From assembly GCA_044892525.1 (NCBI GenBank), contig CM097885.1, positions 19,904,001 through 19,968,000 of the forward strand: a stretch of DNA of 64,000 nucleotides, written 5' to 3'. This DNA is from Schmidtea polychroa (Eukaryota). The translations under genes and the position numbers were made by a program. Shown here piece by piece: positions 16,820 through 17,257 of this stretch (position 1 is its first letter; every line of letters begins with the position of its first letter). A model generated the notes under the pieces. That model did no database searches. It had not been told where the DNA came from and worked only from the letters and a program-made list of their open reading frames with translations.

Positions 16820-17257
16820 ATGCTTGCAAATATAAATTATCGAGGAAATTTTGATGTTTCAAAAATGAGGTTCCCACCAGGAAAACCACAGCAAATTGTC
16901 GATAGAAGCGGGAAATATCCGATAATATTTTTCAAGACTGGCAAATGCAGAATTATGGGATGTAAGGAACCATTGGATATTAATAAATTACAATATCGAA
17001 TCAATAATATTAAAATTCAATCAATTACCGTTACTATGGATATGGGACATACTATCAATTTATACAAAATATCGAGAAAATGTGATTGTATGTTTGAACC
17101 GGAATTGTTTCCGGCACTAAGACTATTAAAATGTAACCCTATATGTGTCAATGTGTTTTCAAGTGGAAAGGTTGTCATGCTTGGGTTGAGAAATTTAGAC
17201 TATAGAGAATTTGTTAACAATGTTCGGAATGAGTTAAATTCATTGGTCGATTTCTAA
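16820..17257 (+). CDS. TATA-box-binding protein (TBP)-like protein
   Basis: 145 aa with two TBP repeats: IFFKTGKCRIMG and KIQSITVTMD...FEPELFPAL...VFSSGKVVMLG (canonical TBP: KIQNMVGSCD...YEPELFPGL...IFVSGKVVLTG). TATATAAA upstream at 16785. Confidence 0.88.
   Translation: MLANINYRGNFDVSKMRFPPGKPQQIVDRSGKYPIIFFKTGKCRIMGCKEPLDINKLQYRINNIKIQSITVTMDMGHTINLYKISRKCDCMFEPELFPALRLLKCNPICVNVFSSGKVVMLGLRNLDYREFVNNVRNELNSLVDF

What the first reader, a model, noticed from the sequence alone, without database searches (positions are those of the whole stretch)
16820..17257. Polinton encodes its own minimal TATA-binding-protein homologue
Seen: an intact 145-aa ORF inside the TIRs with two TBP repeats; repeat 2 is well conserved (FEPELFPAL, VFSSGKVVMLG) and repeat 1 is shortened. 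Established: the EPELF stirrup of TBP contacts TFIIB and four Phe residues kink TATA DNA; TBP genes are known from large nucleocytoplasmic DNA viruses, whereas the canonical Polinton gene set has no basal transcription factor. Here the TFIIB stirrup and apparently three Phe are kept, but the repeat-1 KRF position reads KPQ and QN is QS. Inference: a viral TBP mimic that either redirects Pol II to viral (late) promoters with altered specificity or titrates host TFIIB. It lies head-to-head with the whole morphogenesis cluster across only 108 bp.
Basis: partly seen in the sequence, partly recalled or inferred. Interest (0 to 1): 0.92.

Follow-up and report, generated by a model that had tools for sequence, protein, structure and literature searches.

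The report
Polinton element encodes a minimal TBP
A 17-kb virus-like transposon, present in very many copies in this genome, carries a stripped-down version of the protein that marks where genes start, and its capsid-type genes share a matching start signal, so the element probably switches on its own late genes.

Summary
ORF 16820-17257 (+) encodes a 145-aa protein that passes Pfam's TBP model (58.5 bits, cut-off 22.9). It folds with high confidence (pLDDT 96) into a two-lobed saddle, and solved TBPs were the only matches at E <= 0.001.

It lies inside a complete Polinton/Maverick (4538-21742) with TIRs and a 6-bp duplication, GTCAAT. The element carries pPolB, integrase, adenain-type protease, a double-jelly-roll capsid protein and an A32-type ATPase.

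The gene is not a decaying capture:
- 143 of 150 scored copies are open.
- dN/dS between two subfamilies in this genome is 0.12-0.19.
- Short TBPs lie beside the same Polinton genes in 38 of 81 related contigs.

Three things are new here:
- The N-lobe has lost both helices, which in cellular TBP carry the regulator-binding face.
- Both TFIIB-contact glutamates are kept, and no TFIIB gene is detectable in the element.
- A TATA variant, (T)ATAAACA(A), precedes 68 of 79 virion and integrase genes but only 8 of 96 TBP, orf135 and pPolB genes.

Best reading (0.55): an early-expressed, regulator-blind TBP that recruits host TFIIB and Pol II to the element's own late promoters. DNA binding and expression are untested. 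In print I found only a figure-legend label for TBP in related viruses.

The parts
4538..21742 (.). Complete Polinton/Maverick-type element, 17,205 bp, with termini 5'-AGTAGAGACAAG...CTTGTCTCTACT-3'
   Evidence: Inverted repeats of 93-96% identity. End alignment and direct reads.
4532..4537 (.). Left target-site duplication, GTCAAT
   Evidence: The same hexamer is at 21743-21748.
21743..21748 (.). Right target-site duplication, GTCAAT
4538..5522 (.). Left terminal inverted repeat. The inner part is interrupted by microsatellite-like repeats.
20612..21742 (.). Right terminal inverted repeat
6414..10376 (-). [quoted passage not shown]
   Evidence: 36-54% identical to six relatives. Five of the seven aligned members (the window's protein and those six) pass PF03175 DNA_pol_B_2 at E <= 0.01, best 8.8e-28. 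The window's own protein does not reach 0.01. A profile against PDB found nothing.
11429..11788 (-). Adenain-type cysteine protease frame. It has no ATG in this copy.
   Evidence: PF00770 Peptidase_C5, 31.9 bits against a cut-off of 21.3. Frame listed.
11844..13052 (-). Major capsid protein with a double jelly-roll fold (orf402)
   Evidence: AF2 pLDDT 70.3. Foldseek against PDB gave 178 hits at E <= 0.001. The listed hits are nearly all major capsid proteins: iridovirus, PBCV-1 Vp54, Sputnik, mavirus and faustovirus, with one poxvirus scaffold protein.
13049..13438 (-). orf129, a conserved small protein of the virion gene block; function unknown
   Evidence: Syntenic in relatives. No Pfam hit.
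13431..14477 (-). orf348, a conserved gene between the integrase and the capsid gene. It is a candidate minor capsid protein; this was not tested.
   Evidence: Synteny. No Pfam hit.
14447..15532 (-). Retrovirus-type integrase with a chromodomain trace. This copy has an in-frame poly-Ile microsatellite.
   Evidence: PF00665 rve, 34.5 bits against a cut-off of 32.6. Chromo scores 19.9 bits, below its cut-off.
15588..16052 (-). orf154, a conserved small protein with a hydrophobic C-terminus
   Evidence: Synteny. Sequence.
16074..16711 (-). A32/FtsK-type packaging ATPase, frameshifted in this copy into two overlapping ORFs of 115 and 109 aa
   Evidence: A sibling-family copy of 208 aa passes PF04665 Pox_A32 (24.8 bits against 22.8). 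32 of 36 copies examined have an ORF of 201-213 aa.
16712..16819 (.). 108-bp divergent promoter spacer between the ATPase and TBP genes
16743..16750 (-). Late-type motif ATAAACAA, 39 nt before the ATPase ATG. It lies inside the block TTGTTTATAT, which is invariant in four diverged families.
16785..16793 (+). Canonical TATA box TATATAAAG, 35 nt before the TBP ATG
   Evidence: Conserved in the 99% and 91% subfamilies, apart from a single base in one copy.
16820..17257 (+). Minimal TBP, 145 aa. The N-lobe is strands only (1-50) and the C-lobe is full (60-145). Key residues are F38, F97, F113, E93 and E95.
17937..18344 (+). orf135, a conserved neighbour of the TBP gene in 21 related loci; function unknown
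   Evidence: No Pfam, Atlas or PDB match.
16080..16087 (-). Late-type motif ATAAACAA, 35 nt before the orf154 ATG
15584..15591 (-). Late-type motif ATAAACAA, 59 nt before the integrase ATG. A second copy is at 15669-15676.
14513..14520 (-). Late-type motif ATAAACAA, 43 nt before the orf348 ATG
13531..13538 (-). Late-type motif ATAAACAA, 100 nt before the orf129 ATG
13086..13093 (-). Late-type motif ATAAACAA, 41 nt before the capsid gene ATG

Best explanation
The ORF encodes a functional, element-borne TBP that works as the promoter-selectivity factor of this Polinton lineage.

Shown:
- It is a two-lobed TBP-fold protein under purifying selection, and it is a long-standing syntenic gene of the lineage.
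- Its N-lobe lacks both helices.
- Its C-lobe keeps the two glutamates that contact TFIIB, and three of the four DNA-kinking Phe are kept.
- The element has no detectable TFIIB.
- The virion and integrase genes carry a private TATA variant, (T)ATAAACA(A), at the distance from the ATG where the TBP gene has an ordinary TATA box.

Inferred:
- The TBP gene is transcribed first, from a host-type CCAAT plus TATA promoter.
- The protein then binds the TATAAACA(A) elements. The conserved C-lobe would sit on the TATA half. The altered, more polar N-lobe (N6, R44, M46, and P23 in place of the stirrup Phe) would sit on the AACA half.
- It recruits host TFIIB and RNA polymerase II through the EPEL stirrup and so turns on the ATPase, orf154, integrase, orf348, orf129 and capsid genes.
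- Without the N-lobe helices it should not be held or evicted by host TBP regulators (TFIIA, TAF1, Mot1/BTAF1, NC2, Brf1), and it should not enter TFIID-type complexes.
For: Identity:
- Pfam TBP at 58.5 bits against a cut-off of 22.9.
- AF2 pLDDT 96.2.
- 44 of 44 Foldseek PDB hits at E <= 0.001 are TBP.

Selection and residence:
- The own genome gave 4170 first-look candidates. 150 were scored, all at >= 91% identity, and 143 of the 150 have no stop. The capsid gene gave 4912 candidates, 103 scored, 98 without a stop.
- Nei-Gojobori dN/dS between the 99% and 91% subfamilies is 0.12-0.19 in 10 of 10 pairs, with dS 0.23-0.35.
- There are 69 homologues, all with PF00352, and 107 cluster representatives at E <= 1e-10.
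- Of 81 related loci, 50 hold another element gene beside the TBP. 38 of these hold a hallmark or virion-block gene (ATPase, integrase, capsid, pPolB, orf348, orf129 or orf154). This includes relatives whose pPolB is only 32% identical.
- TBP and ATPase pairwise identities co-vary, Spearman 0.76 over 231 pairs of 22 loci. The pairs are not independent.

Architecture:
- The N-lobe has no helix.
- E95 is invariant and E93 is >= 90% conserved. F38, F97 and F113 are invariant.
- The two C-lobe glutamates C.L3.2 and C.L3.4 contact Arg and Thr of TFIIB, and the N-lobe is the regulator interface, according to PMC7221094 (section 11 read in full; passages of section 12).
- No TFIIB: six-frame searches of the whole genome with PF00382 and PF08271 gave 25 and 22 matches. 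None is in the element and none is multicopy on the element's scale. No TFIIB family appeared among the element ORFs scanned.

Promoters:
- Seven ATAAACAA sites lie on the coding strand within 13086-16750. About 0.4 are expected from the window-wide shuffle mean of 15.1 per 128 kb of strand (the arithmetic is mine).
- A site lies 35-100 nt before the ATG of each of six genes; a second site lies before the integrase gene.
- The block TTGTTTATAT is invariant in the spacer of four diverged families.
- In 36 metagenome loci, TATAAACA is the most frequent strongly enriched 8-mer at -70..-15 of ORFs: 46 observed against 3.3 expected.
- ATAAAC[AG] within 130 nt of the ATG, by gene: ATPase 25/26, orf154 7/9, integrase 12/16, orf348 8/12, orf129 6/6, capsid 10/10. 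Against this: TBP 4/73, orf135 3/20, pPolB 1/3. The background is 0.074 per 130 nt.
- TBP genes instead carry TATAWAWR, in 26 of 73. Those sites lie mostly 31-47 nt before the ATG, often with an ATTGG/CCAAT box. ATPase genes carry ATAAACA mostly 31-49 nt before the ATG.
Against: - No DNA binding, TFIIB binding, transcript or start site was observed.
- No sequencing run on record as RNA held the stretch.
- TATAAACA still contains TATAAA, so the host TBP might read it.
- ATAAACA also fits the forkhead-factor consensus RYAAAYA (recalled).
- No related Polinton without a TBP was available, so co-occurrence of the gene and the motif could not be tested.
- The window's own copy is partly decayed: the ATPase is frameshifted, the protease frame lacks an ATG and the integrase holds a poly-Ile tract. 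Function is therefore argued from the family, not from this copy.
- Between co-resident families the TBP is far more diverged (53-58%) than the integrase (89-92%) or the capsid protein (84%). That could mean module swapping rather than co-evolution with a fixed motif.
- The mapping of N-lobe DNA-facing residues rests on strand register and on recalled TBP numbering. It does not come from a residue-level structural alignment.
Confidence: 0.55

Rival explanations
1. Decoy or brake. The minimal TBP occupies TATA-type sites or soaks up host TFIIB without building a productive initiation complex. The result would be host transcription shut-off, or silencing of the element's own late genes to keep it latent.
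For: The TFIIB-contact glutamates are kept while the N-lobe face that TFIIA and TFIID use is missing. One of the four Phe is lost. Both features could make a poor activator that still binds.
Against: A pure TFIIB sponge would not need an invariant DNA-facing sheet (N4, N6, F38, M46, S68, F97, N111, F113). Nor would it explain a private motif placed at TATA distance in front of six genes.
Confidence: 0.15
2. The ATAAACA(A) element is read by a host factor, either host TBP or a forkhead-type factor. The element's TBP then has a general role, such as supplying TATA-binding activity in cell types where host TBP is scarce. It would not have a private specificity.
For: The motif contains TATAAA in many sites and matches the forkhead consensus (recalled). 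TBP genes themselves sit behind ordinary TATA boxes.
Against: The motif keeps a narrow distance to the ATG, mostly 31-49 nt for the ATPase gene. That is the same distance as the canonical TATA boxes of the TBP genes, which suits a core-promoter element better than an enhancer site. The C at position 7 is kept across relatives whose pPolB is only 32% identical. The N-lobe DNA face is changed and conserved.
Confidence: 0.15
3. An architectural DNA-bending protein used in replication, integration or packaging of the linear genome, not in transcription.
For: The TBP fold is a general DNA-bending module. The gene sits next to the packaging ATPase in most relatives.
Against: The two glutamates that exist to contact TFIIB/TFB are conserved. 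No repeated motif of this kind was seen in the TIRs.
Confidence: 0.07
4. The late-type motif is the promoter of a helper giant virus, as in virophages. The TBP would then serve that cytoplasmic system.
For: Polinton-like viruses and virophages are known to copy helper-virus late promoters. An unchecked note of this scan, e1-7768731, reports this, and I also recall it.
Against: The motif has TATA-box sequence and spacing. The element has an integrase, TIRs and thousands of germline copies. The TBP keeps the cellular TFIIB-contact residues, which giant-virus TBPs mostly do not: about 40% at C.L3.2 (PMC7221094).
Confidence: 0.05
5. A neutrally decaying fragment captured from the host TBP gene.
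For: None beyond the shortened N-lobe.
Against: dN/dS is 0.12-0.19. 143 of 150 scored copies are open. The family is deep and syntenic. tblastn of the protein against the six host TBP-type loci fetched found nothing at E <= 1e-3.
Confidence: 0.02

Closest known systems
Cellular and archaeal TATA-binding protein (Pfam PF00352; e.g. PDB 2z8u, 1mp9, 1ais, 1cdw, 1vol)
   Same: The two-lobed saddle fold is the same. The C-lobe matches in sequence, including the EPELF stirrup and both C-lobe Phe. Both TFIIB-contact glutamates are present.
   Different: It is 145 aa against about 180 for the core. The N-lobe has no helices H1 and H2. One of the four Phe is replaced, at K22/P23. The minor-groove Asn of the C-lobe is Ser68. 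Polar residues (N6, R44) sit at inferred DNA-facing positions. It is encoded by a mobile element in thousands of copies.
TBP-like proteins of giant viruses (Nucleocytoviricota) and mirusviruses
   Same: All are virus-encoded TBP-fold proteins. They are the only strong viral structural matches: 26 BFVD hits at E <= 0.001. Mirusviruses carry TBP in 59% of genomes (PMC10132985, passages).
   Different: Those proteins are 186-547 aa with full lobes and are only 9-20% identical. Giant-virus TBPs mostly pair with a virus-encoded TFIIB and keep the C.L3.2 glutamate in only about 40% of cases (PMC7221094, section 11). Here there is no TFIIB and both glutamates are conserved. The single IMG/VR hit (L021) is a canonical 182-aa TBP on a contig with heliorhodopsin, ribonucleotide reductase and PolB, so it is not this family.
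'TBP' genes labelled in MELD viruses with adintovirus-like PolB (Starrett et al. 2021, PMC8502044, Fig. 5 legend)
   Same: A TBP-like gene in a mid-size virus with a Polinton-type PolB. This is the only mention I found in print.
   Different: Only a legend entry was seen. I read the passages and section 3.4, and the figure itself is not held. There is no description of length, lobes, residues, selection or promoters. The section concerns non-animal datasets. Whether it is the same family is unknown.
Polintons with an adjacent TBP plus TFIIB pair
   Same: Polinton/Maverick elements that carry their own TBP and are thought to steer host Pol II.
   Different: Those elements are 20.6-23 kb and carry a TFIIB-like gene next to the TBP. 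This 17.2-kb lineage has no detectable TFIIB, and a search by sequence found no look-alike among those notes.
Herpesvirus late-gene TBP mimics (KSHV ORF24, HCMV UL87 family)
   Same: It works like them in concept. A viral TBP-like DNA reader with conserved Phe and a more polar DNA face selects a TATA variant on late promoters in the nucleus and uses host Pol II (PMC12529657, abstract only). Weak structural matches to U58 and BcRF1 were found.
   Different: ORF24-type proteins are large, need a C-terminal domain and partner proteins, bind Pol II directly, and are modelled as incompatible with TFIIB (section heading seen). Here there is a bare 145-aa TBP core with the TFIIB stirrup intact.

Membership tests
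TBP (PF00352) | Score above the curated Pfam threshold | tested here: met
   58.5 bits against 22.9, E 6.2e-16, two stretches. Sibling families score 62.5 and 64.3 bits.
TBP (PF00352) | Two tandem repeats forming a saddle with a ten-stranded sheet | tested here: met
   AF2 pLDDT 96.2, with strands in both lobes. 44 of 44 PDB hits at E <= 0.001 are TBP, TMq 0.65-0.79.
TBP (PF00352) | Two helices (H1, H2) on the convex face of each repeat | tested here: not met
   The C-lobe has H1' at 81-85 and H2' at 129-142. The N-lobe has no helix. All 40 aligned members are short in the same places.
TBP (PF00352) | Four intercalating Phe, two per lobe | tested here: not met
   Three of four are present. F97 and F113 align to the archaeal Phe, and F38 aligns to F113. 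The N-lobe stirrup position is K22/P23, and P23 is invariant.
TBP (PF00352) | C-lobe acidic pair that contacts TFIIB/TFB (C.L3.2, C.L3.4) | tested here: met
   E93 is >= 90% conserved and E95 is invariant. Their role is as described in PMC7221094, section 11.
TBP (PF00352) | Binds and bends TATA DNA | not testable with these tools
   Needs EMSA, SELEX or a structure.
Polinton/Maverick | [quoted passage not shown] | tested here: met
   Five of seven aligned members pass PF03175, best 8.8e-28. The window's protein is 36-54% identical to the other six but does not itself reach E 0.01.
Polinton/Maverick | Retrovirus-type (rve) integrase | tested here: met
   PF00665, 34.5 bits against 32.6.
Polinton/Maverick | Double jelly-roll major capsid protein | tested here: met
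   The orf402 model has pLDDT 70.3. 178 PDB hits at E <= 0.001; the listed hits are nearly all double jelly-roll capsid proteins, including Sputnik and mavirus.
Polinton/Maverick | Adenain-type cysteine protease | tested here: met
   PF00770, 31.9 bits against 21.3, for frame 11429-11788 (-). There is no ATG in this copy.
Polinton/Maverick | A32/FtsK-type packaging ATPase | tested here: met
   A sibling-family copy (L124, 208 aa) passes PF04665 at 24.8 against 22.8. The window copy is frameshifted, and only a P-loop match was found there.
Polinton/Maverick | Long terminal inverted repeats and a 6-bp target-site duplication | tested here: met
   TIRs of 93-96% identity. GTCAAT lies on both flanks. 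That 6 bp is the family's hallmark is recalled.
Polinton/Maverick | Minor (penton) capsid protein | not tested
   orf348 is the positional candidate.
Viral orthogonal TBP-TFIIB pair (giant viruses; Polintons of earlier notes) | A virus-encoded TFIIB-like gene alongside the TBP | tested here: not met
   Six-frame searches with PF00382 and PF08271 gave 25 and 22 matches in 781 Mb, none in the element. The orf135 profile found no TFIIB in PDB. A very diverged miniature TFIIB cannot be excluded.
Herpesvirus vTBP (ORF24/UL87) | TBP-like domain embedded in a large protein with Pol II-binding and C-terminal DNA-binding domains | tested here: not met
   The whole protein is 145 aa and is all TBP core.

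The most novel reading that the evidence does not exclude
This Polinton lineage runs a self-contained two-tier Pol II programme. A host-type CCAAT/TATA promoter makes a 145-aa TBP that host regulators cannot see. Together with host TFIIB, that protein switches on at least six virion and integrase genes through a private TATA variant, TATAAACAA. It would be the smallest known promoter-selectivity switch of a eukaryotic virus and a natural orthogonal TBP/TATA pair. It would also show that Polintons have early and late gene classes like large DNA viruses.
Probability: 0.4. Interest if true: 0.85.

Novelty: new variant of a known kind. Interest (0 to 1): 0.72.

Why it matters
- Polintons/Mavericks are seen as the stem group of many eukaryotic DNA viruses, yet how they control their own genes is almost unknown. 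A conserved TBP with a matching promoter signal gives a concrete, testable model of early and late regulation in these elements.
- The protein is a natural minimal TBP. It has a full DNA-binding sheet and TFIIB stirrup but lacks the N-lobe face that TFIIA, TAF1, Mot1, NC2 and Brf1 use. That makes it a ready-made tool for asking what the regulator face of TBP is for.
- The motif gives a simple marker for annotating late genes and transcription units in related elements. It can also be used to ask whether expression of these very abundant copies depends on the element's own factor.

Tried and rejected
- RNA evidence: no listed holder of the stretch is on record as RNA. The laid runs are contigs of uncertain kind and show neither transcripts nor starts. 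They are not used either way.
- Binding of TBP to its conserved neighbour orf135: the complex job gave no verdict, score 0.02 against a mark of 0.34, and the controls were not run. It is not used either way.
- orf135 identity: no Pfam hit, no usable Atlas hit, and no PDB match by profile, best E 0.42.
- IMG/VR scans: the TBP alignment found one contig, which holds a canonical TBP of a large virus. The capsid alignment found none. No relatives without a TBP were obtained, so the co-occurrence test could not be run.
- pPolB against PDB: nothing, either by single sequence or by profile. PHROGs gave only endonuclease-VII-like hits.
- The lobe-against-lobe alignment recovered only the S4-S5 segment. 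The N-lobe stirrup was placed by strand register.
- Window-wide, ATAAACAA is not enriched: 20 against 15.1 expected. Only its clustering, strand and position are unusual.
- Origin of the gene: archaeal TBPs score slightly above eukaryotic ones, but the margin is small. Origin is left open.
- Capture from the host was rejected.
- The motif as a poly(A) signal was rejected. It lacks AATAAA, and it precedes the first gene of the block, which has no upstream gene on that strand.
- I sent them again corrected.
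Full report
**1. The observation**

It passes Pfam's TBP model at 58.5 bits against a curated cut-off of 22.9 (E 6.2e-16, two stretches). A phmmer search of PDB returned 35 distinct sequences, all TBPs or TBP fusions.

I built an alignment of 40 family members (A1). With it, AlphaFold2 gave a model of pLDDT 96.2 and pTM 0.84. Foldseek against PDB gave 44 matches at E <= 0.001. All are TBP, with TMq 0.65-0.79 over both lobes, and the next match has E 0.024.

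The quoted strings FEPELFPAL and VFSSGKVVMLG, the KPQ at 22-24 and the QS at 67-68 are all present.

**2. Anatomy of the protein**

- **C-lobe (about 60-145).** It has the full TBP repeat: S1' 62-74, H1' 81-85, three short strands, S5' 117-123 and H2' 129-142.
- **N-lobe.** It has strands only (2-10, 25-28, 35-38, 42-48) and no helix. This explains 145 residues instead of about 180. All 40 aligned members are short in the same places.
- **Phe residues.** F97 and F113 align to the two C-lobe Phe of archaeal TBP. F38 aligns to F113 when the two lobes are compared as profiles (hhalign probability 74%). The N-lobe stirrup has no aromatic residue. By strand register the position is K22/P23, and P23 is invariant.
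- **TFIIB contacts.** E93 (at least 90% conserved) and E95 (invariant) are the two C-lobe glutamates. Ravarani et al. 2020 describe these as the contacts to Arg and Thr of TFIIB/TFB. The same paper describes the eukaryotic N-lobe as the interface for TFIIA, TAF1, Brf1/2, Mot1/BTAF1 and NC2 (PMC7221094; section 11 read in full, passages of section 12).
- **DNA face.** By register, and using recalled TBP numbering, the DNA-facing positions of the N-lobe read N4, N6, F38, R44 and M46. Cellular TBP has Asn, Val, Phe, Val and Thr there. In the C-lobe the minor-groove Asn is Ser68. This is inference, not a residue-level structural alignment.

**3. The element**

The ORF lies in a complete Polinton/Maverick.

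| Feature | Result |
|---|---|
| Ends | TIR arms of 93-96% identity reach 4538 and 21742; both ends flanked by GTCAAT |
| pPolB (1320 aa) | 5 of 7 aligned members pass PF03175, best 8.8e-28; the window's protein is 36-54% identical to the other six but does not itself reach E 0.01 |
| Protease | Adenain-type frame, PF00770, 31.9 against 21.3 |
| Capsid protein | Double jelly-roll fold; model pLDDT 70.3; 178 PDB hits at E <= 0.001; listed hits nearly all major capsid proteins (iridovirus, PBCV-1, Sputnik, mavirus) |
| Integrase | rve, 34.5 against 32.6 |
| Packaging ATPase | Passes Pox_A32 in an intact copy of a sibling family (24.8 against 22.8) |

The window's own copy is slightly decayed:
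- The ATPase is frameshifted. 32 of 36 copies examined have an ORF of 201-213 aa, and 4, including this one, are truncated.
- The protease frame has no ATG.
- The integrase holds an in-frame poly-Ile microsatellite.

The TBP ORF is intact.

**4. Is the gene maintained?**

The genome is 781 Mb in 1012 contigs. It gave 4170 first-look candidates for the TBP. 150 were scored, all at 91% identity or more, and 143 of the 150 have no stop. The capsid gene gave 4912 candidates, 103 scored, 98 without a stop. The TBP is therefore about as common as the capsid gene.

Two subfamilies, at about 99% and 91% protein identity to the window copy, differ by dS 0.23-0.35 and dN about 0.04. That gives dN/dS of 0.12-0.19 in 10 of 10 pairs. 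Within the 99% subfamily the few differences give ratios of 0.24-0.74, higher than between subfamilies.

More distant families of the same lineage also live in this genome. Their TBPs are 53% and 58% identical to the window's, while the integrase is 89-92% and the capsid protein 84% identical. The TBP therefore evolves fast or is exchanged between lineages.

tblastn of the TBP against the six host TBP-type loci I fetched found nothing at E <= 1e-3. This argues against a recent capture from the host.

**5. Relatives elsewhere**

- A word-indexed search found 69 homologues, all carrying PF00352 and mostly 144-165 aa.
- An exhaustive search of cluster representatives found 839 at E <= 1e-3 and 107 at E <= 1e-10. 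Nearly all of the first hundred or so are single-stretch short forms.
- A metagenome scan found 177 stretches encoding a relative, and 80 loci were kept.
- Together with the one IMG/VR locus, 81 loci were compared with the element's proteins. 50 hold another element gene beside the TBP and 31 show only the TBP. Of the 50, 38 hold a hallmark or virion-block gene: ATPase, integrase, capsid, pPolB, orf348, orf129 or orf154.
- Full synteny is seen in L031 and L043 (pPolB 47-53% identical) and in L073, L083 and L089 (pPolB 32-40%).
- TBP and ATPase identities co-vary, Spearman 0.76 over 231 pairs of 22 loci. The pairs are not independent.
- IMG/VR holds no member. Its single hit is a canonical 182-aa TBP on a contig with heliorhodopsin, ribonucleotide reductase and PolB.

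**6. A matching promoter signal (new here)**

Seven ATAAACAA sites lie on the - strand within 13086-16750. About 0.4 would be expected from the window-wide shuffle mean of 15.1 per 128 kb of strand; that arithmetic is mine. Window-wide the word is not enriched: 20 against 15.1.

The sites lie 41, 100, 43, 59, 35 and 39 nt before the ATGs of the capsid gene, orf129, orf348, integrase, orf154 and ATPase. There is a second site before the integrase gene. In the TBP-ATPase spacer the block TTGTTTATAT, which is the motif's complement, is invariant in four diverged families while its surroundings differ.

In relatives the motif is strongly strand-biased. Counts on the two strands are 12 against 2 in L043, 6 against 0 in L056, 9 against 0 in L124, and 6 against 0 in both L073 and L089. 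L031 is a weaker case at 7 against 5, and L053 and L093 have none.

I ran an unbiased 8-mer count over positions -70 to -15 of 254 ORFs in 36 metagenome loci. TATAAACA was the most frequent strongly enriched word, 46 observed against 3.3 expected. ATAAACAA gave 39 against 3.3.

ATAAAC[AG] within 130 nt of the ATG, by gene:

| Gene | With motif / ORFs examined |
|---|---|
| ATPase | 25/26 |
| orf154 | 7/9 |
| Integrase | 12/16 |
| orf348 | 8/12 |
| orf129 | 6/6 |
| Capsid | 10/10 |
| **Virion and integrase genes together** | **68/79** |
| TBP | 4/73 |
| orf135 | 3/20 |
| pPolB | 1/3 |
| **TBP, orf135 and pPolB together** | **8/96** |

The background rate is 0.074 per 130 nt, so the second group is at the chance level.

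TBP genes instead carry TATAWAWR, in 26 of 73. Those sites lie mostly 31-47 nt before the ATG, often behind an ATTGG/CCAAT box. The window's TBP has TATATAAAG 35 nt before its ATG. The ATPase motif sits mostly 31-49 nt before its ATG, so it occupies the TATA-box position.

**7. No TFIIB in this lineage**

Eight unchecked notes of this scan describe Polintons in other genomes with an adjacent TBP and TFIIB pair, so I tested for a TFIIB here. Six-frame searches of the whole genome with PF00382 and PF08271 gave 25 and 22 matches. None is inside the element and none has the element's copy number. No TFIIB family appeared among the element ORFs scanned. The conserved neighbour orf135 matches nothing. 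A very diverged miniature TFIIB cannot be excluded.

**8. How it most likely works**

- **Shown:** the fold, the selection, the synteny, the loss of the N-lobe helices, the kept TFIIB-contact residues, the lack of a detectable TFIIB, and the two promoter classes.
- **Inferred:** the TBP gene is read first from a host-type promoter. The protein then binds the TATAAACA(A) boxes, calls in host TFIIB and Pol II, and turns on the virion and integrase genes. Without the N-lobe face it escapes the host's TBP regulators.
- **Confidence:** I put this at 0.55.
- **Rivals:** a decoy or brake on transcription (0.15); the motif read by a host factor, including a forkhead-type factor whose recalled consensus it fits, with the TBP having a general role (0.15); an architectural role in replication or packaging (0.07); a helper-virus promoter (0.05); a decaying fragment (0.02).

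**9. Comparison with what is known**

- **Fold:** it is a member of the TBP family. It fails two canonical features: the N-lobe helices and the fourth Phe.
- **Giant-virus and mirusvirus TBPs:** these are the nearest viral structures, but they are longer and only 9-20% identical. Giant-virus TBPs are mostly paired with their own TFIIB.
- **Herpesvirus late-gene TBP mimics:** in concept it works like them (PMC12529657, abstract only). In size and partners it is quite unlike them.
[quoted passage not shown] The searches were. Papers on Cymbomonas elements (PMC10675990, passages), a planarian chromatin study (PMC10558129, passages) and cryptophyte PLVs (PMC12220804, passages) add nothing on this point. 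The figure and supplements of the legend's paper were not seen.

**10. Verdict**

The finding is a new variant of a known kind: a virus-encoded TBP. It is made more interesting by the helix-less N-lobe, the apparent reliance on host TFIIB and the matched late-promoter signal. Expression and DNA binding remain untested.

Noticed in passing
G000:C1:23.85-24.19 Mb and G000:C3:38.2-39.1 Mb (outside the window): About 13 intron-less ORFs of 301-310 aa carry both a TFIIB zinc ribbon and a TFIIB cyclin repeat. They are arranged in two local clusters. This could be a host gene expansion or another mobile element.
   Followed up: no
window 19152-19502 (-) and 19612-20112 (+): Two divergent accessory genes lie inside the element. 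orf116 has a weak, sub-threshold Bcl-2 match (16.4 bits against 31.4). orf166 has a signal-peptide-like start, a coiled-coil-like middle and a hydrophobic end. Both sit behind CCAAT plus TATAAAT-type promoters.
   Followed up: partly
L124 and L125 (own genome, other chromosomal sites): Co-resident families of the same lineage are mosaic. Integrase (89-92%), ATPase (81-91%) and capsid protein (84%) are highly identical to the window's element. TBP (53-58%), orf348 (53%) and the pPolB N-terminus (30%) are not. This suggests exchange of modules or very uneven rates.
   Followed up: partly
window 17258-17936: Between the TBP gene and orf135 lies a stretch with a GT...AG intron-like segment (about 17355-17395) and short open frames. 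It may hold a small spliced gene. In the L124 family a different 122-aa ORF follows the TBP gene.
   Followed up: no
window 5440-6320, 11260-11420, 15100-15170, 17650-17830: Long (ATT/AAT)n-type microsatellites have expanded inside the element, one of them in frame within the integrase gene, where it gives a poly-Ile tract.
   Followed up: no
window 32128-33225 (+) and 23825-24199 (+): A pogo/Tc5-type transposase ORF (DDE_1, HTH_Tnp_Tc5, Brinker/CENP-B N domains) and a hAT dimerisation-domain fragment lie outside the Polinton.
   Followed up: no
L021 (IMG/VR contig, 44.7 kb): This contig carries a canonical 182-aa TBP (124 bits), a heliorhodopsin, both ribonucleotide reductase subunits and a split family B polymerase. 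That gene set resembles the one reported for mirusviruses.
   Followed up: partly
window 6414-10376 (-), residues about 130-200 and 619-661: The pPolB has an EVVNS tandem peptide repeat near its N-terminus. It also has a weak endonuclease-VII-like segment that is shared by all seven aligned members.
   Followed up: no
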